Below the pieces are notes generated by a model that did not search any database, was not told the DNA's origin, and saw only the letters and a list, made by a program, of their open reading frames with translations. 64,000 nucleotides of DNA from a virus: the IMG/VR virus record IMGVR_UViG_3300046501_000246; one strand, 5' to 3'. A program made the position numbers and the translations under genes. Shown here piece by piece: positions 30,531 through 64,000 of this stretch. The first letter of the stretch is position 1. Every line of letters begins with the position of its first letter.

Positions 30531-30612
30531 TGGAGCACTCCGCGAGACTCGAACTCGCATTTTCGTTCCAGTTAGCTTAGTCAGCGTTCGTAGCGCTGCG
30601 GCATAGGAGTGC
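30531..30612 (-). tRNA. Atypical D-armless tRNA-Arg(ACG)-like RNA
   Basis: Acceptor GCACTCC/GGAGTGC+TCCA; T-arm GCGAG-TTCGAGT-CTCGC; anticodon arm CAGCG-CTACGAA-CGCTG only 7 nt after the acceptor strand. Confidence 0.75.
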
Positions 30613-32930: not shown

Positions 32931-33004
32931 TGGTGGGATTACCCGGAATCGAACCGAGGTAAAAGAGTTTAGAATTCCCTGCTCTGCCATTGAGCTATAA
33001 TCCC
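32931..33004 (-). tRNA. Amber suppressor-type tRNA (anticodon CTA)
   Basis: GGGATTA/TAATCCC acceptor, loop TTCTAAA, canonical T-arm, A73 CCA; weak anticodon stem. Confidence 0.8.
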
Positions 33005-39732: not shown

Positions 39733-42700
39733 TATGCTGTTACCGTAAGTGAGACAAAATAATCTTTAATATCGATGCCACGAGTTTGACGAAGGATACA
39801 TCCAACGGTCGAACCGTTAGTGACTACAGCCGAACCACGTGCGATATCGCCGTTTGAGTTGACGTAGATAGCTCCACCAGTATAAGCCGTTGGCGCTGTA
39901 GCTGAGTTAAGTAGAACGCGAGTCTCGTTGTTTAAGAGAGCGGGCTGATCAACAATAACGGCGTCTAGCGCAGTGCTGGTAGCTGATAAAGTTCCTGTAG
40001 CCGTTAAGACTGACATAGGAGTTGCTAAGTCACCAGTTCTGGCGATAGGAGTAGACGTTGCATAAGTATCATCATATGCAAGGTTAGTTACTGTGCCATC
40101 TGTAACAACGATGTGGATACGATCTACACGGCTGATCAAACAACCCATGTCGGCGGTCTGGATAACATAGCTAGGACCCGTTGCACCATCGATCCAACGG
40201 CAGTCATAACCCAAATGCTCGGACCAATTAGCTAGCTGAACAACGGGACGGTGACGACGCCATTGATATGAGCGAGTAATTGTTGCACCCGGAAACTGAG
40301 CCAAGATCGCAGATGTATCAAACTCAGTATCTGTGCCGTCAAGTGATTGACCAACGGCGCGAGTTCCAGTGACCACGGCGCGCGTAACAATCGGAGGAGG
40401 AGCAACAACTACGCCCTTGTAGATAAAGTGATCGGACCAAGTGAAGCTCTGCATCGTACCAGCAGTTGGTACATTAGTATCAGTACGTCTCAAAGTGGTT
40501 GTGACGTTGTGGAACACAATACCTCTGAAAATACCTGAAGTAGGTCTGTCAATGCTGATGCCGTTGGCACACTTCCAAATCAATTCGTCATGAACCGCGA
40601 TATCGGCACGATAAGGCTTACCAACGTAACCAGAAACAGAAATACCAGAATAAGAGTGGGCTCTGTTAATGTCGTACCAAGTGTTGTCGTAAATTTCGTG
40701 ACTCAGTGAGCCGCCTTGGTTATCGTAACCACCAATACCGTAACCAAATGAGTAGCTATTCATTTTGGCATGAGTACATTTATTACGGCAGAATACGTGG
40801 AAGTCACCTTCGTCTGTACCCTTTACGAAGTTATTACCGTCTAGTTTATTGTCATGACTATAGACATAGCTCGCCATGTTCGTAACGAGGCAACCCTTAC
40901 CTGAGCTAGTTTTAACGCTAGCCATGTCGAGGAAACAGCCGCGTGCGATGAAACCACGGTTTTTAGTCGTGAAACGATCTTCACGTAACTGAACCGCGTC
41001 ACCTTCGGGAGAGAAGACTGGCTTGGTGTTAACCGTATCTAGAATTACTCTATCTGTGTTATCTAGGTAAATACCATCGGACCAAACACGATCTAGTGTA
41101 ACTCTACGAAGTGTAATGTCGTTACCGTTTTGGAAGAACAAGCCTTGTGAGTTTTCATTCTTCGCGACATAGCCGCAAGGATCGAAGAAGCAATCTTCGA
41201 TGAGCCAGTTGCTACCCTGACGCTGCTGAAGGCCGCGCTGGTTGCCAGCAATGTTCAGGTTTTTAATCGTAACATTGCTTAGGCCTTGAGTGCCGTCTGT
41301 GTATTGGTCGATACCGAAAGTAACACCAGTGCCAATGGTTGGATAACCACCAGTGCCATAAGCATCATAGGTGCGGCTCGCGCCAACAACTAGAGCAGTG
41401 GCCCAAGACGAACCACGCTTAAGGAGGGCGGAACCACTTGAAGTGATTGAACCAGTTCCGGTTAGATTCTGCTTTGCCGTGTCAGGAGTTTGACCATCGA
41501 AACCATCATTACCACCGGCTAGATCGTAATATGTTGCTGGACCTAAAACAGTTAGTGGAGCAGAATAAGCCGTGGTTGAACCAATGCCGTTTGTTGCTGT
41601 TACGCCGACACGAATTCTCTTACCAACATCGCCAGTGGCGGGAACATAGATAGAAGTGGTTGCGCCAGAGACGTTGGCCCAATCGCCAGCATTTAGCGTA
41701 GCTTCTAACTGAACCTGCATCGCGAAAGTGGTTGGCTGGTGATTCCACGAACCAAGTGTGATGTTGTGAGCCACACCGACTCGCGTCTCAGTCGCTGTGA
41801 TGGCCGGAATAACTAGATTGGCAGGCGCAAGGGTTTGAGCCGTAGAGCCTTCTAGAGTGATACCAGCTGTCGTGACATTGTGTGTAAAGCTCGTGTTTGA
41901 ATAGGTAACTTTGGCAGTAATAGCTTTACCGGCGTGTTCGGCGCGAGACGTAAATTTATTTTTACCAAGTGCAAGACCTGTGTAAGCGCCCCAAGGAACA
42001 TCAATGTAGGACTGGCCAGCAGTGGGATCAACCGTGAAGTTATTAGAACCAGACCCAATGTTTGTCATGGCAAGTCTTATACGAAGGAGATCAGTACTGG
42101 CCCACGCGCCTAAATCGGCAGTCACAGAGGTTGTGATCACACCTGTCGTGGCAGGAATAGCTGCGGTTCCCAATGTGCCGTGAACTAGTTGAACTTCTGA
42201 GCCTTGAACCGTGCCGGCTGAGTCGACTCGTGCCGCATAAATTCTAACGCTCATCTGTGAGTTAGGGCTTGAGCTTTTAATAGTTGCAGAATAAAGCTGC
42301 GGCCCATCGTTCTGACCAGCGGCGGTAGTACCGGGCAAGTAGTAGTAATCACTTTCAGTTGTGAAAGGTGAAACAGAAGAAGCGTTTGTGTTAGAACCAC
42401 CATATGCAGATGTCGAAAATCCTCTGGTATAGTTTTGACCTTGAGGGAGTGTGCCGAAAGCTGCTACGGTCTGAGCATAAAATCTTTTTGGCGATCTAGT
42501 GTCGTTAATTTTAATACCATCAGCTTGCCATTCCCAAGCTGCCTCTTTAGCAAAATTAGTGTAAACACCCGGAACGACTGCAATTTCAGAGCCGATAAGG
42601 TTAGTTCCAGATAATGAAGGGGCTGTGGTTACAGCCGTGTCTAAATAAGCAATAGGTCCGATAGCATTGGCACTAACCCAAGCCGATGTGCCAGCAGTAT

Positions 42701-60752: not shown

Positions 60753-60835
60753 ATAAAAATAACTGTTGACAAGGCAATCTAAATCTTCTAAAACTTAATC
60801 ATCGAAGCAGAGAAATTAAGTTTTAGGAGGTTGAC

Positions 60836-61036
60836 ATGGCTACGGATCGTGCTACTTACACCAACACTAAAGGCAGTCACGCTTACGAAGTCTATGTCTA
60901 CGAGGATAAGCAGTGCCGAGTGACTAAGAATTTCAAAGAGAAAATCTTTGAGGTTCATGCTTCAAATCGTAGCCAAGCCGCACGGCGTGTCGAAAAGGAT
61001 GGTTACGAGGTTTGCTCAGTTAATATGATTGGTTGA
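60836..61036 (+). CDS. Hypothetical protein
   Basis: RBS AGGAGG; promoter TTGACA at 60766. Confidence 0.7.
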   Translation: MATDRATYTNTKGSHAYEVYVYEDKQCRVTKNFKEKIFEVHASNRSQAARRVEKDGYEVCSVNMIG

Positions 61037-61048
61037 GAGGAGGGTAAA

Positions 61049-61231
61049 ATGTCTTTCAAAATCGTTGCAGGTGCCCATCAAACAGTCATGGAATTTGGTG
61101 GTGAGAATTCAACACTGGAAGAAATGATCGAAAAGGCAAAGGGTATCGCGAAGAAATACGAAATCGATGAAGTGCTTGTTCTGGAAACGAAAGAGGTTTT
61201 TTCTACAAAAAGAAATAAAAAATCTTCTTGA
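61049..61231 (+). CDS. Hypothetical protein
   Basis: RBS GGAGG. Confidence 0.65.
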   Translation: MSFKIVAGAHQTVMEFGGENSTLEEMIEKAKGIAKKYEIDEVLVLETKEVFSTKRNKKSS

Positions 61232-61271
61232 CATTTCAGATAGTTGGTGTTAAGTTAGAATCATCAAAAGA

Positions 61272-61358
61272 GCGGGCTTGGTGTAATTGCTAGCCACGAC
61301 AGACTTAAAATCTGTTGACCTTTGTGTCGTACCGGTTGGAGTCCGGTAGCCCGTACCA
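61272..61358 (+). tRNA. tRNA-Leu(TAA)
   Basis: ACAGA-CTTAAAA-TCTGT, variable arm, CCA; promoter TTGACA-17-TAAGTT upstream. Confidence 0.92.
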
Positions 61359-61774
61359 ATTGAGTTATGAAAATACAGCGTCCCTCAGAAGCGTTCGCGC
61401 CACGAGGGTTACAAATAGTAAGAGGTACAGAACAGGCCGTTGGCTTGCTTATGAGAAGACTATGGGCTGTGTTTTTATAATTGAATGAAACTGTTTAGGT
61501 GGGGAATGCTGGTTATGCTGATGACCTTGTTCCTTCAAGGTCTAATGAGGAAAGAAGTAGTTTCGAAGGCGGTTGCGACTGGCAGAGAAACATAAGGATA
61601 CTTGGTTCGATTCCCCTCAGTTCCCTTCCTAAATAGTTTGGCTCAACCTGAATTGACAGGTACTGAACCGCTGGAACAGAGGCGCAAAGCCTTGATCGAG
61701 CGGAATGGATAAAGTAAATGTAACAAGCCGTTTCGACGGGAGATAACATTGCTTCGATCCAGCCTTTTTTCTTC

Positions 61775-61851
61775 GGGCGCTTAGCTCAGTTGGTTAGAGC
61801 ATCTGCCTTTTAAGCAGAGGGTCGAGGGTTCAAGTCCCTCAGCGCCTACCA
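61775..61851 (+). tRNA. tRNA-Lys(TTT)
   Basis: Canonical cloverleaf, CCA. Confidence 0.97.
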
Positions 61852-62092
61852 AGAATTACTCATGCCACGAATTGACGTGGGCTGAGATATGCGAGATTAC
61901 TTAGCTAGCGCTGGCCAAGTAATTCACCGGTATCTTGCGATGTAGGCTCCGACTCTGAATCGGATGATGCTTGCGGTGAGTACAAAGTTTAGCGCAACGT
62001 GAGAGTTGCACTTATATACGTGAGCTAGCTACCACGATATGAGGGATGGGTGAGAGACCGATTGCTAATACGAAATTCTAATAGGTGTAGTC

Positions 62093-62356
62093 ATGATTAT
62101 CAAACTACTTCAAGAAAATTGGGATAAAATACTACAAATCGGTGTAGAAGCCGAGAAACGGATGGAGGCTCACATGTCTAAAAACTTCATCCTTGAGGGG
62201 ATTACACGCAAGGGCAAGAACAGGATCAATGAGCACGGCGCGTGCTGGAAATTGGTTGACGTAAGAGATGGAAAGATGCTATTCGAATCCTTGAACACGC
62301 CGGGATACCTCAAGTGGGGTCCAGAGCCGGATTTCAAGATCGTGGAGGGAGACTAG
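62093..62356 (+). CDS. Hypothetical protein
   Basis: GITRKGKNRINEHG motif; the real start may be the ATG near 62174. Confidence 0.65.
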   Translation: MIIKLLQENWDKILQIGVEAEKRMEAHMSKNFILEGITRKGKNRINEHGACWKLVDVRDGKMLFESLNTPGYLKWGPEPDFKIVEGD

Positions 62357-62360
62357 CATC

Positions 62361-62561
62361 ATGGGCGAGACCATTCTTATATATGATGAACGTTACGAAA
62401 GTGGGCCAAGATTTATTGGCTCTTTCAGGAACGTGCCAGAGGATTGGACCGCGAAAGAAACGCTGGTTCGTTACGGGATAGGCGAGCATCTATGCGTGTA
62501 TCGCGATACCTTCGTTCCTAAGAATTGTATTCATCACGGAAAAAGATTTAGATCGGATTAA
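62361..62561 (+). CDS. Hypothetical protein
   Basis: Tightly packed operon. Confidence 0.6.
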   Translation: MGETILIYDERYESGPRFIGSFRNVPEDWTAKETLVRYGIGEHLCVYRDTFVPKNCIHHGKRFRSD

Positions 62562-62562
62562 T

Positions 62563-62769
62563 ATGAAAGATCAGTTTGGTTATACTCCCAATACGGGAAG
62601 CTATCCGCCTTACTTTAATATTACTAAAGTTGACTGCGGTTATCGTGTGACGGTTAGGCGTAAAGCCGAATGGGATGGTGATCTTTGTCTTCCCATGGGT
62701 GGTAATATTGTGGAAGAAACCTTCCCTGAAGATTTCATTGATAAACTGAAAGAGTTTGTCAATGGCTAA
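62563..62769 (+). CDS. Hypothetical protein
   Basis: Tightly packed operon. Confidence 0.6.
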   Translation: MKDQFGYTPNTGSYPPYFNITKVDCGYRVTVRRKAEWDGDLCLPMGGNIVEETFPEDFIDKLKEFVNG

Positions 62770-63088
62770 AAAAGTTGGAAATTATAAAATTCCGTTTGAT
62801 CGTAACGGGAATCAGCTGCATTATCCTGAGAGTTATTGGAGCGGCAATGGGCGTGTCGAATGTGAGATGCGTGATAATCACGCCTTTGAAGACACGATAG
62901 TTTTTGATTCTATGGAGCGGGGTCGCAGTGCTGCTTACTTCTATTTTAAGCGATCCACAGGTGAAAAACTTGTTGTCTTTATGAAAGATTTGTGCGACAT
63001 GATGCCTCACGTTATTAATGGTACTGTAACAGGTACATTCACTTTCGTTAAGCGTGGCGCTAATTTCGGCACGGCTTTAATTAGTTAA
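62762..63088 (+). CDS. Hypothetical phage protein
   Basis: MERGRSAAYFYF...FTFVKRGANFG. Confidence 0.75.
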   Translation: MAKKVGNYKIPFDRNGNQLHYPESYWSGNGRVECEMRDNHAFEDTIVFDSMERGRSAAYFYFKRSTGEKLVVFMKDLCDMMPHVINGTVTGTFTFVKRGANFGTALIS

Positions 63089-63093
63089 ACTAT

Positions 63094-63183
63094 CTACACG
63101 TACCGGTCAGGGTTTCTACCCCTTAGTAACCGTAATTGGAGGCGATAACATCAATGGGGGTTCGAGTCCCTCCGTGTAGGCCA
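63094..63183 (+). tRNA. Atypical D-armless tRNA-Arg(TCT)-like RNA
   Basis: Acceptor CTACACG/CGTGTAG+GCCA; T-arm GGGGG-TTCGAGT-CCCTC; AGGG-TTTCTAC-CCCT right after a short linker. Confidence 0.7.
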
Positions 63184-63193
63184 TTTTTAAGAA

Positions 63194-63268
63194 GGAGGAT
63201 TAGCACAATGGTAGTGCCTGCGGCTCATAACCGTTTCTACGTTGGTTCGATTCCAGCATCCTCTACCA
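63194..63268 (+). tRNA. tRNA-Met or Ile2 (CAT)
   Basis: TGCGG-CTCATAA-CCGTT, canonical arms, CCA. Confidence 0.9.
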
Positions 63269-63746
63269 AAACTTGTTTTCGCCTTTTATAAGATTCTTTC
63301 ATAGCCTCAACATGAGCAGGCGACTTTGGTTTACCTTTTAATTTTAAACCACCCTTCCTGCCATTTTCTCTAAGCTCTTCTTTGGTCAAAAACAATGCAG
63401 GGCTACGTCCTTTAAGCGGGCCGTGTAACTCTAATCGTTTCTCAGCGCCAGCTTTTGCTGCTTCTGAAGTGAATCCACCTACACCGCCTAAGCGCATATT
63501 GTAGGTGAAATTTTTATCGTAATCATTAGTTAATTCAATTTCTTTTAAATAAGCTTCTTCTTTAGAAGAAGTTATGAATAGTATTTCTTTTCTAAAATTA
63601 TGTTTACCGTGTGCTTTTATTGCTTGTTTAATGGCTACGCCAGAGCCATAATATCCATCGTAAGGATTATTAGTTAGATGCACTCCAATGTAGTATTTGT
63701 TATTGATGTTATTAGTTATTTTATAAACAGTGTATACTTTATCCAT
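63237..63746 (-). CDS. GIY-YIG homing endonuclease (Seg-like)
   Basis: VYKITNNINNKYYIGVH, YYGSG, FRKEIL, TYNMRLGG; own promoter. Confidence 0.9.
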   Translation of the reverse strand: MDKVYTVYKITNNINNKYYIGVHLTNNPYDGYYGSGVAIKQAIKAHGKHNFRKEILFITSSKEEAYLKEIELTNDYDKNFTYNMRLGGVGGFTSEAAKAGAEKRLELHGPLKGRSPALFLTKEELRENGRKGGLKLKGKPKSPAHVEAMKESYKRRKQVLVEDAGIEPT

Positions 63747-63834
63747 TTAACGTATCTTTGTTTTTATTATATTTTTAATGGCTTTAGTATATCATATTTA
63801 AATTAAAAGTCAAGTTAATAATTAGGGAAGTCTC

Positions 63835-64000
63835 ATGCATGAGAAAGCTGTAGATTTATTCGTTCATGATCTTGGCCATGACAATCAGCTAAGAATCGTT
63901 TTTTATAACGAGGACGGTGATAATTTTTGGTACGACATAAAAGCTCATGCCGGTAGGGATGACTACTTTTGGTTCCCTGAATCTCTTGGATATGTTAAAT
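63835..64000 (+). CDS. Hypothetical protein, 3' partial
   Basis: ATG after a GGAA RBS-like sequence; open to the window end. Confidence 0.45.
   Translation, partial: MHEKAVDLFVHDLGHDNQLRIVFYNEDGDNFWYDIKAHAGRDDYFWFPESLGYVK

What the first reader, a model, noticed from the sequence alone, without database searches (positions are those of the whole stretch)
63094..63183. Second, sequence-independent D-armless tRNA-Arg (TCT) with the same rearranged architecture
Seen: CTACACG-TACCGGTC-AGGG[TTTCTAC]CCCT-TAGTAACCGTAATTGGAGGCGATAACATCAAT-GGGGG TTCGAGT CCCTC-CGTGTAG-G-CCA. Again there is no D-arm, the anticodon is Arg, and a D-loop-like AATTGGA sits 3' of the anticodon arm. Two different sequences 32 kb apart sharing one odd layout and one amino acid suggest a real RNA class that standard tRNA finders would miss or call pseudo.
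Basis: partly seen in the sequence, partly recalled or inferred. Interest (0 to 1): 0.85.

Follow-up and report, generated by a model that had tools for sequence, protein, structure and literature searches.

The report
Rewired phage arginine tRNA (UCU)
This 90-base phage gene is very probably a working arginine tRNA whose D-arm is wired in a different order from the universal cloverleaf; it belongs to a large family, found almost only in phages, that gene finders mostly miss and that I found in no paper.

Summary
It has a 7-bp acceptor stem, a T-arm, G73 with encoded CCA, and a canonical anticodon loop reading UCU. There is no D hairpin, and a D-loop-like motif lies 3' of the anticodon arm.

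It is not decay. Three other phage sequences share the core and carry compensatory changes in every stem. A pattern scan plus a covariance model recovered about 125 distinct relatives; 93 of the 104 I could parse carry Arg anticodons.

The four bases after U8-A9 pair with the four bases just before the D-loop-like motif, and these pairs covary strongly. So the D-stem closes around the anticodon arm instead of forming its own hairpin. The Levitt pair covaries as well (A15-U48 92 times, G15-C48 11, G-U once, A-C never), so the canonical tertiary core seems to be kept.

The window has no ordinary tRNA-Arg. Its two rewired genes (UCU here, ACG at 30531-30612) cover about 88% of its Arg codons.

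ARAGORN and the Rfam tRNA model miss both genes, and GenBank records leave relatives blank or misname them. Charging and decoding are inferred, not shown.

This scan reached the same reading earlier on other phage DNA. I found no publication describing the layout.

The parts
63094..63100 (+). Acceptor stem, 5' strand
   Evidence: Pairs 7/7 with 63173-63179. All 7 pairs covary across 92 relatives, 98.9% paired.
63101..63102 (+). U8 and A9
   Evidence: TA in 104 of 104 parsed relatives, although no search pattern required it.
63103..63106 (+). Strand X (CCGG): D-stem strand that runs straight into the anticodon stem, taking the structural place of canonical 22-25
   Evidence: 63104-63106 pair with 63130-63132. 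In the family, X2:Y3 and X3:Y2 are paired in 103/104 and 104/104 members, with 4-5 pair types each.
63107..63107 (+). Single base between X and the anticodon stem (position 26 equivalent)
   Evidence: One base in most relatives.
63108..63124 (+). Anticodon arm: 4 pairs plus a C-T mismatch at 27:43, 7-nt loop, anticodon TCT at 63115-63117
   Evidence: U33 and A37 are present. A-T changes to C-G at 28:42 in Phosso. The stem covaries in the family, 95.6% paired.
63125..63129 (+). Linker 1 (5 nt), bulged between the anticodon stem and strand Y; probable stand-in for the first part of the variable loop
   Evidence: 3-8 nt in nearly all parsed relatives, one outlier of 13. The role is inferred.
63130..63133 (+). 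Strand Y (CCGT): D-stem strand that leads into the D-loop-like motif, taking the structural place of canonical 10-13
   Evidence: Pairs with X. Its last base T is conserved and mostly faces a mismatch, as canonical 13:22 often does.
63134..63140 (+). D-loop-like motif: A14 A15 T T G18 G19 A20
   Evidence: GG is kept in all members found by the model alone. Position 15 covaries with the base before the T-stem. The base after GG is A in all 17 Arg members for which the pattern did not force it, and in only 3 of 12 non-Arg members.
63141..63150 (+). 10-nt insertion after A20, specific to this subtype
   Evidence: The model treats it as an insertion. It is present in the three closest relatives with one A/G difference and absent from other subtypes.
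63151..63155 (+). Linker 2 core, ending in A then T (position 48 equivalent)
   Evidence: The last base is T whenever position 15 is A (92/92), and C in 11 of 12 cases where it is G.
63156..63172 (+). T-arm: 5 pairs, loop TTCGAGT
   Evidence: 100% paired in the family, and 4 of 5 pairs covary. GGGGG/CCCTC here becomes GGGAG/CTCTC in phage OC.
63173..63179 (+). Acceptor stem, 3' strand
   Evidence: See the 5' strand.
63180..63183 (+). Discriminator G73 and encoded CCA
   Evidence: CCA is encoded in 64 of 104 relatives.
30531..30612 (-). Second rewired tRNA-Arg (anticodon ACG, loop CTACGAA) of the same phage
   Evidence: Same layout. 72.6 bits with the family model. E 8e-10 with the leave-out profile. 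Relatives L007 and L008 show compensatory changes.
63194..63268 (+). Ordinary tRNA-Met (CAT) 10 bases downstream; probably co-transcribed
   Evidence: ARAGORN and Rfam at 54.8 bits. A tRNA with a CAT anticodon also follows the homologue in L003.

Best explanation
It is a functional phage tRNA-Arg(UCU) that reads AGA (and probably AGG) and is built on a non-cloverleaf secondary structure.

[quoted passage not shown] The D-arm is rewired:
- After U8-A9 the chain runs straight down one strand of a short helix (X) into the anticodon stem.
- After the anticodon stem and a 5-nt bulge it comes back up the other strand (Y).
- It then presents a D-loop-like A14-A15-Y-Y-G18-G19-A20 segment and reaches the T-stem through a linker ending in U48.

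The result is a three-way junction in which the X/Y helix stacks on the anticodon stem, 5 + 4 layers as in a normal D/anticodon stack. The single-stranded D-loop segment can still make U8-A14, R15-Y48, G18-psi55 and G19-C56. In effect, canonical bases 10-21 have been moved into the variable loop.

Shown here: the helices, their covariation, the 15:48 covariation, and the distribution of the family.

Inferred: the L-shape, processing by RNase P, charging by the host ArgRS through A20 and C35, and decoding.
For: 1. Conservation with compensation. Three relatives keep the core while the acceptor, T and anticodon stems change on both sides.

2. Family size. 86 distinct sequences there have this layout, and the model added about 20 more.

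3. Structure. 92.9% of cells are paired against 57.1% in shuffles and 35-45% with slid partners. The covariation score is 0.909 against 0.21. The two central X/Y pairs never break and use 4-5 pair types.

4. Tertiary pair. 15:48 is A-T 92 times, G-C 11, G-T once and A-C never. Position 48 was not part of any search pattern. U8-A9 is invariant in 104/104.

5. Arg identity. 93 of 104 anticodons are Arg. A20 is kept in 17 of 17 Arg members not forced by the pattern, against 3 of 12 non-Arg members. By established knowledge, A20 and C35 are the main ArgRS determinants. All 17 ACG members keep the loop CTACGAA of bacterial tRNA-Arg(ACG), the TadA substrate.

6. Need.
- The window (43.6% GC) uses AGA for 29.5% of Arg codons and CGT+CGC+CGA for 59%.
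- It has 20 ordinary tRNAs but no ordinary tRNA-Arg.
- The complete genome of phage OC has an ordinary Arg(ACG) and, for UCU, only the rewired gene.
- 25 viral loci have 10 or more ordinary tRNAs. In the 15 distinct ones that hold both an ordinary and a rewired tRNA-Arg, the two never share an anticodon.

7. Independent membership. The leave-out profile gives E 3e-11.
Against:
- For this particular sequence the proposed fold is worth only -12.6 kcal/mol against an MFE of -26.6, in which the G-run of the T-stem pairs with the C-run of the anticodon stem. The MFE z-score is -0.55. The ACG gene does not have this problem (-25.5 against -26.4).
- Here X/Y has only 3 standard pairs, and the anticodon stem has a 27:43 mismatch.
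- The 10-nt insertion after A20 is unique to this subtype and unexplained.
- The A14, A15, GG and A20 statistics in the largest subset were partly forced by the search pattern. Only the smaller subsets are unbiased for those bases.
- The tertiary fold was not modelled.
Confidence: 0.8

Rival explanations
1. It is a tRNA-shaped RNA that is not used for decoding. It could be a decoy or sponge for a host tRNA-Arg-directed nuclease, for ArgRS or for a modification enzyme, or it could serve as a primer or regulator.
For: - The layout departs from every tRNA known to work on bacterial ribosomes.
- Phage clusters do hold tRNA-shaped RNAs of unknown role, for example the T5 'tRNA-like stable RNAs' annotated.
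- No charging data exist.
Against: - The anticodon loop is fully canonical and almost always Arg.
- Where ordinary and rewired Arg genes occur in one cluster, their anticodons complement each other instead of duplicating.
- The window and phage OC would otherwise lack a tRNA for their most-used Arg codon while carrying near-complete sets.
- A20, the discriminator and CCA are kept.
Confidence: 0.12
2. The function is the same but the local structure differs. U8-A9 form two Watson-Crick pairs with the conserved T-A that precedes A15. This extends X/Y into one long hairpin with a single bulged base, rather than forming the canonical U8-A14 reverse-Hoogsteen pair with a 13:22-like mismatch.
For: TA after the acceptor and TA before A15 are both invariant and complementary. 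The base between A9 and the paired part of X faces Y4 as a non-pair in 85 of 104 members.
Against: All four bases are invariant, so covariation cannot decide. The 15:48 covariation and the conserved GG argue that the segment after Y behaves like a real D-loop.
Confidence: 0.3
3. It is a decaying pseudogene, or a chance tRNA-like sequence.
For: Rfam tRNA and ARAGORN reject it. The MFE fold is unremarkable.
Against: The core is identical in four unrelated phage backgrounds, with compensatory stem changes. More than 100 relatives show strong covariation. Stems are perfect and CCA is encoded.
Confidence: 0.02
4. It is a precursor that becomes a normal cloverleaf after removal of an intron or other RNA rearrangement.
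For: ARAGORN's intron mode exists for such cases.
Against: Removing any one contiguous segment cannot put Y and the D-loop motif in front of X. ARAGORN with introns allowed still of 92. Both ends already form a normal acceptor stem.
Confidence: 0.03

Closest known systems
Canonical class I bacterial and phage tRNA-Arg (Rfam RF00005), e.g. E. coli tRNA-Arg(UCU)/argU and tRNA-Arg(ACG), and the T5 tRNA-Arg annotated in NC_005859
   Same: - 7-bp acceptor stem, 5-bp T-stem with a TTCGA-type loop, and a 5/7/5 anticodon arm with U33 and A37
- U8; A14-R15...G18-G19-A20 motif; Y48; G/A73; CCA
- Arg anticodons, and the same anticodon-loop sequences
   Different: - The order of the parts differs: the D-loop motif and one D-stem strand lie after the anticodon arm.
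- The D-stem encloses the anticodon arm, giving a three-way instead of a four-way junction.
- The variable loop is split in two.
- The T5 tRNA-Arg is an ordinary cloverleaf.
Metazoan mitochondrial D-armless tRNAs, e.g. mt-tRNA-Ser(AGY) and nematode mt-tRNAs (reviewed in PMC7609411)
   Same: There is no D hairpin between the acceptor and anticodon stems; a short connector takes its place.
   Different: - Those tRNAs are short, lack the G18-G19 motif and the D/T-loop contact, and work on specialised mitoribosomes.
- This family is 75-90 nt long, keeps the D-loop motif and a D-stem, and must work with bacterial factors.
- The review mentions neither phages nor this layout.
Circularly permuted tRNA genes of Cyanidioschyzon merolae (from my own knowledge)
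   Same: The order of tRNA parts in the gene is changed.
   Different: There the permutation is undone by RNA processing and the mature tRNA is a normal cloverleaf. Here the ends are the normal acceptor ends, so the rearrangement must persist in the mature RNA.
tRNA-like structures with altered chain topology: the TYMV-type viral 3' TLS and the tRNA-like domain of tmRNA (from my own knowledge)
   Same: These show that an L-shape with a D-loop/T-loop-type elbow can be built with a different strand connectivity, or without a D-stem.
   Different: Those RNAs do not decode codons through an anticodon. This family has a complete anticodon arm.
allo-tRNAs with 8/4 or 9/3 acceptor/T branches (PMC5389517)
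   Same: Noncanonical bacterial or phage tRNAs found by metagenome mining and missed by standard rules.
   Different: allo-tRNAs keep the cloverleaf order and a D hairpin. The departure here is topological.

Membership tests
Canonical tRNA (Rfam RF00005 / cloverleaf) | 7-bp acceptor stem directly stacked on a 5-bp T-stem with a T-psi-C loop, then discriminator (and CCA) | tested here: met
   7/7 and 5/5 pairs, loop TTCGAGT, G73, CCA.
Canonical tRNA (Rfam RF00005 / cloverleaf) | Anticodon arm with a 7-nt loop, U33 and a purine at 37 | tested here: met
   loop 63113-63119. The stem has 4 pairs plus a 27:43 mismatch.
Canonical tRNA (Rfam RF00005 / cloverleaf) | D hairpin (stem 10-13/22-25 closing the D-loop) between position 9 and the anticodon stem | tested here: not met
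   Only 7 bases lie between the acceptor and anticodon stems. The stem partner and the loop lie 3' of the anticodon arm.
Canonical tRNA (Rfam RF00005 / cloverleaf) | Reaches the Rfam gathering score, or is called by ARAGORN | tested here: not met
   No RF00005 match even at E up to 10. Not in the ARAGORN list.
Rewired (D-stem-around-anticodon-arm) phage tRNA family, as defined here | Helix between the bases after U8-A9 and the bases just before the D-loop-like motif, enclosing the anticodon arm | tested here: met
   63104-63106 pair with 63130-63132. Family covariation.
Rewired (D-stem-around-anticodon-arm) phage tRNA family, as defined here | A14-R15-(Y)Y-G18-G19 segment after strand Y, with R15 matching the base before the T-stem | tested here: met
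   AATTGGA at 63134-63140, with T at 63155. Family counts.
Rewired (D-stem-around-anticodon-arm) phage tRNA family, as defined here | Significant score against a family profile that excludes the gene and its near relatives | tested here: met
   nhmmer 38.7 bits, E 3.2e-11; ordinary tRNAs of the window score 6.6 bits or less. The full model gives 67.9 bits, but that model was trained on this gene.
tRNA-Arg (functional identity) | C35 with U36 or G36, and A20 next to G18-G19 (ArgRS determinants, established knowledge) | tested here: met
   Anticodon TCT; A at 63140 directly after GG.
tRNA-Arg (functional identity) | Arginylation by ArgRS and decoding of AGA on the ribosome | not testable with these tools
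   No RNA data were obtainable. Support is only indirect, from codon use and anticodon complementarity.
Mitochondrial-type D-armless tRNA | Short tRNA (about 55-65 nt) with the D-arm replaced by a connector and without the G18-G19 elbow motif | tested here: not met
   87 nt without CCA. The GG motif and a D-stem equivalent are present. ARAGORN's mitochondrial mode gives inconsistent calls on 29 of 92 relatives.

The most novel reading that the evidence does not exclude
The rewiring is adaptive. By changing the D-arm topology while keeping the ArgRS, EF-Tu and ribosome contacts, phages obtain arginine (and some isoleucine, lysine and valine) tRNAs that escape something which recognises the cloverleaf D-arm of host tRNA-Arg. 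That could be a host tRNA-targeting defence nuclease, or a phage-encoded factor that removes host tRNAs. The rewired set would then keep phage translation running when ordinary tRNA-Arg is destroyed.
Probability: 0.2. Interest if true: 0.92.

Novelty: new variant of a known kind. Interest (0 to 1): 0.8.

Why it matters
Outside mitochondria, the cloverleaf is treated as universal for tRNAs that work on ribosomes. Here a topologically different design has been maintained by selection in well over a hundred phage lineages.

One subtype alone occurs in 267 cultured phage records, including E. coli, Salmonella and Klebsiella phages (121Q-type jumbo phages, about 140-kb myoviruses, T5-like Klebsiella phages). 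It is absent from 5,426 complete E. coli genomes.

If these tRNAs are charged and decode, several things follow:
- The L-shaped core can be threaded in more than one way and still satisfy RNase P, ArgRS, EF-Tu and the bacterial ribosome.
- Phage tRNA inventories are systematically undercounted and mislabelled: blank, 'tRNA-OTHER', 'tRNA-Leu(taa)' or 'hypothetical protein'.
- There is a natural scaffold for orthogonal tRNA design.
- Whether phage tRNAs evolve to evade tRNA-directed defences becomes testable in laboratory E. coli phages.

Tried and rejected
- **Single-sequence folding.** The MFE is not tRNA-like and the z-score is -0.55. It is uninformative, and for this gene it favours a competing fold.
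- **Rfam at permissive threshold.** Only weak tRNA-Sec and YrlA matches, well below their cut-offs. Rejected as family assignments.
- **A local D-hairpin made from strand Y, the D-loop motif and linker 2.** Impossible in subtypes whose linker 2 is 4 nt.
- **A stem ATTGG/TCAAT around the 10-nt insertion.** It would consume G18-G19 and has no counterpart in other subtypes. Not adopted.
- **blastn of the ACG gene against cultured phages.** No match.
- **Promoter and terminator scan of 60800-64000.** Counts are within the shuffles, so no own promoter or terminator is claimed.
One copy lies between uvrC and pgsA, not in an obvious prophage. But only 1 of 121 sampled genomes of that family has it, so it is sporadic. 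No match in E. coli genomes.
- **Literature.** Seven full-text searches and two papers read gave no description of this layout.
- **T5.** Its own tRNA-Arg is an ordinary cloverleaf.

Full report
**1. The observation**

- a 7-bp acceptor stem (63094-63100 with 63173-63179)
- seven bases
- an anticodon arm with four standard pairs plus a C-T mismatch, and a 7-nt loop with U33, TCT (63115-63117) and A37
- 31 bases that contain AATTGGA (63134-63140)
- a T-arm (63156-63172, loop TTCGAGT)
- G73 and CCA

ARAGORN finds 20 ordinary tRNAs in the window but not this gene. The Rfam tRNA model does not match it at the gathering score, nor at E up to 10. The best match is tRNA-Sec at 17.9 bits against a cut-off of 47. 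Single-sequence folding is uninformative (z -0.55).

**2. It is under selection**

With a 1.7-kb query, only these 90 bases match cultured phages:
- Ochrobactrum phage vB_OspM_OC, 89.6% identity
- Sinorhizobium phage Phosso, 94.7% identity

One IMG/VR contig also holds it. In these three sequences the inner 7-base and 31-base segments are almost unchanged. The acceptor stem, the T-stem and pair 28:42 change on both sides. The ACG gene has two relatives with the same behaviour.

**3. It belongs to a large family**

I scanned viral contigs for the D-loop-like motif placed 8-24 bases before the T-loop, a spacing ordinary tRNAs cannot have. 86 distinct sequences there have the same order of parts.

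A covariance model built from 92 of them found about 20 further members in the same loci that do not fit the pattern. These include variants of the D-loop motif and of the T-loop. A second scan for the G15 form added 12.

Of 104 parsed members, 93 have Arg anticodons: TCT 55, ACG 17, TCG 12, CCT 6, GCG 2, CCG 1. The rest are Ile (GAT, TAT, CAT) and Val. The model alone also found a Lys CTT.

A sequence profile built without the window's genes and their near relatives finds the UCU gene at E 3.2e-11 and the ACG gene at E 8.1e-10. The window's ordinary tRNAs stay at E 0.33 or worse. The model finds no third member in the window.

**4. The structure**

The four bases after U8-A9 (strand X, 63103-63106) pair with the four bases just before the D-loop-like motif (strand Y, 63130-63133).

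On the 92-sequence alignment:
- The four helices are 92.9% paired, against 57.1% in shuffles and 35-45% when partners are slid.
- The covariation score is 0.909 against 0.21.
- The two inner X/Y pairs are essentially never broken and use four to five pair types.
- The outer pair next to the anticodon stem is paired in about two thirds of members.
- The pair next to the D-loop motif is mostly a T-T or C-T mismatch, as canonical 13:22 often is.

So the D-stem exists but encloses the anticodon arm. The secondary structure is a three-way junction.

Read against the canonical numbering:
- X takes the place of 22-25.
- Y takes the place of 10-13.
- The motif is A14-A15-Y-Y-G18-G19-A20.
- The linker before the T-stem ends in position 48.

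Two observations support this mapping:
- U8-A9 is invariant in 104 of 104, although no pattern asked for it.
- Position 15 covaries with the last linker base: A-T 92, G-C 11, G-T 1, A-C 0. This is the Levitt pair. The G-C form occurs in several different anticodon groups.

Stacking the 5-bp anticodon stem on the 4-layer X/Y helix gives the same length as the normal anticodon/D stack. That the chain can be threaded this way in three dimensions is an inference; I could not model it.

A local rival cannot be excluded: U8-A9 may pair in Watson-Crick fashion with the conserved T-A before A15, with one bulged base. All four bases are invariant, so covariation cannot decide.

**5. What is special in this gene**

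Compared with its nearest subtypes, the window's gene and its three close relatives carry a 10-nt insertion right after A20 (63141-63150). This is where ordinary D-loops also vary in length. Its role is unknown.

For this sequence the proposed fold is worth only -12.6 kcal/mol against an MFE of -26.6, in which the G-run of the T-stem pairs with the C-run of the anticodon stem. That is a real caveat. The covariation argues for the tRNA-like fold, and the ACG gene does not show this gap (-25.5 against -26.4).

**6. Function**

The evidence for decoding is indirect but consistent.
- The window is 43.6% GC. AGA is its most-used Arg codon (29.5%), and CGT, CGC and CGA make up 59%. A UCU and an ACG (inosine) tRNA would therefore cover about 88% of Arg codons.
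- The window has 20 ordinary tRNAs and no ordinary tRNA-Arg.
- The complete genome of phage OC has 23 ordinary tRNAs, including Arg(ACG). For UCU it has only the rewired gene, at the edge of the same cluster.
- 25 viral loci have 10 or more ordinary tRNAs. In the 15 distinct ones that hold both an ordinary and a rewired tRNA-Arg, the two never share an anticodon.
- In the subsets where the pattern did not force it, the base after G18-G19 is A in 17 of 17 Arg members and in 3 of 12 non-Arg members. By established knowledge, A20 and C35 are the main ArgRS determinants.
- All 17 ACG members keep the loop CTACGAA. This is the loop of bacterial tRNA-Arg(ACG), which TadA deaminates and recognises through the anticodon arm alone (established knowledge).

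The gene starts 6 bases after the stop codon of a small ORF and lies 10 bases before tRNA-Met. No promoter or terminator stands out. Co-transcription followed by RNase P/E-type processing is therefore inferred. Expression could not be checked.

**7. Distribution and annotation**

The host of the window's phage is probably an alphaproteobacterium. Its portal protein is 41-49% identical to those of large siphoviruses of Rhodobacterales, Rhizobiales and Sphingomonadales, and its tail genes are siphovirus-like.

The family itself is much wider:
- One subtype alone is found in 267 cultured phage records. These include E. coli, Salmonella and Klebsiella phages, and almost all lack a feature at that position.
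- Phage 121Q labels it tRNA-Leu(taa), Klebsiella phage Roth37 labels it tRNA-OTHER, and phage OC has a hypothetical protein on the other strand.
- Rfam's tRNA model does reach 10 of 15 tested relatives, but only at 32-39 bits, while ordinary tRNAs mostly score 40-74.
- ARAGORN of 92, with wrong ends.

**8. Comparison with what is known, and novelty**

It works like a tRNA-Arg, but it fails the defining cloverleaf feature: a D hairpin between position 9 and the anticodon stem.
- It is not like mitochondrial D-armless tRNAs, which are short and have lost the elbow motif.
- It is not like permuted tRNA genes, whose mature product is canonical.
- The nearest conceptual precedents are tRNA-like structures that reach an L-shape with a different chain topology.

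Seven full-text searches and a 2020 review of noncanonical natural tRNAs gave no description of this layout.

After I had derived the structure, a look-up showed that this scan has reported the same family several times on other phage DNA, with the same reading. Those are AI notes and not independent evidence. Here I re-derived the helix, the size of the family and the failure of the tRNA finders. I also found 15:48 covariation, an association of A20 with Arg anticodons, anticodon complementarity with ordinary tRNA-Arg genes, and a description of this subtype's insertion.

**9. Verdict**

The gene is most likely a functional, non-cloverleaf tRNA-Arg(UCU) (confidence about 0.8). It is a new variant of a known kind and is directly testable in laboratory phages. 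Why phages keep this design is open. Escape from something that recognises the ordinary D-arm is the most interesting reading that the evidence does not exclude.

Noticed in passing
window 32931-33004 (-): An ordinary-looking tRNA with anticodon CTA, which reads UAG (ARAGORN labels it 'Pyl'), sits in the big tRNA cluster. Only 2 of 46 long ORFs in the window end in TAG. It may be an amber suppressor or a sign of UAG recoding.
   Followed up: no
window 63237-63746 (-): A SegE-like GIY-YIG homing endonuclease gene runs convergently into the 3' end of tRNA-Met, right behind the rewired tRNA. Homing endonucleases also pepper the T5 and Klebsiella phage tRNA clusters.
   Followed up: no
L256 (phage T5, NC_005859 about 41432-41503, minus strand, inside 'RNAX'): A tRNA-shaped piece has an acceptor stem, a T-arm and the family's Y-strand/D-loop/linker motif, but only about 10 bases where the anticodon arm should be. 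It scores 33 bits with the family model. It lies in a T5 'stable RNA with unknown functions'.
   Followed up: partly
L265 9990-10147 (-) (Rhodobacteraceae chromosome); the same pair in L266 (Rhizobiaceae MAG): A canonical tRNA-Arg(GCG) is followed after one base by a rewired tRNA-Arg(UCG). In L265 the pair lies between uvrC and pgsA, in housekeeping surroundings with no obvious prophage. Only 1 of 121 genomes sampled from that family has a rewired gene.
   Followed up: partly
L254 1195-1276; L255 1195-1276; L001 1524-1724: Rewired tRNA-Arg(UCU) genes are misannotated in GenBank: 'tRNA-Leu(taa)' in phage 121Q, 'tRNA-OTHER' in Klebsiella phage Roth37, and a 'hypothetical protein' on the opposite strand in Ochrobactrum phage OC. 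Most of the 267 matching records have no feature there.
   Followed up: yes
L104 12513-12594, L115 4841-4922, L284, L324, L274, L283, L330, L305, L102 11003-11080, L109 7364-7441: The same rewired layout also carries non-Arg anticodons: Ile GAT, TAT and CAT (mostly with G15-C48 and T instead of A after GG), Lys CTT and Val TAC. The design is therefore not strictly tied to arginine.
   Followed up: partly
L046 2679-2928 (-): A permuted tmRNA (Rfam RF04321, 91.8 bits) lies on a viral contig that also carries a rewired tRNA-Arg.
   Followed up: no
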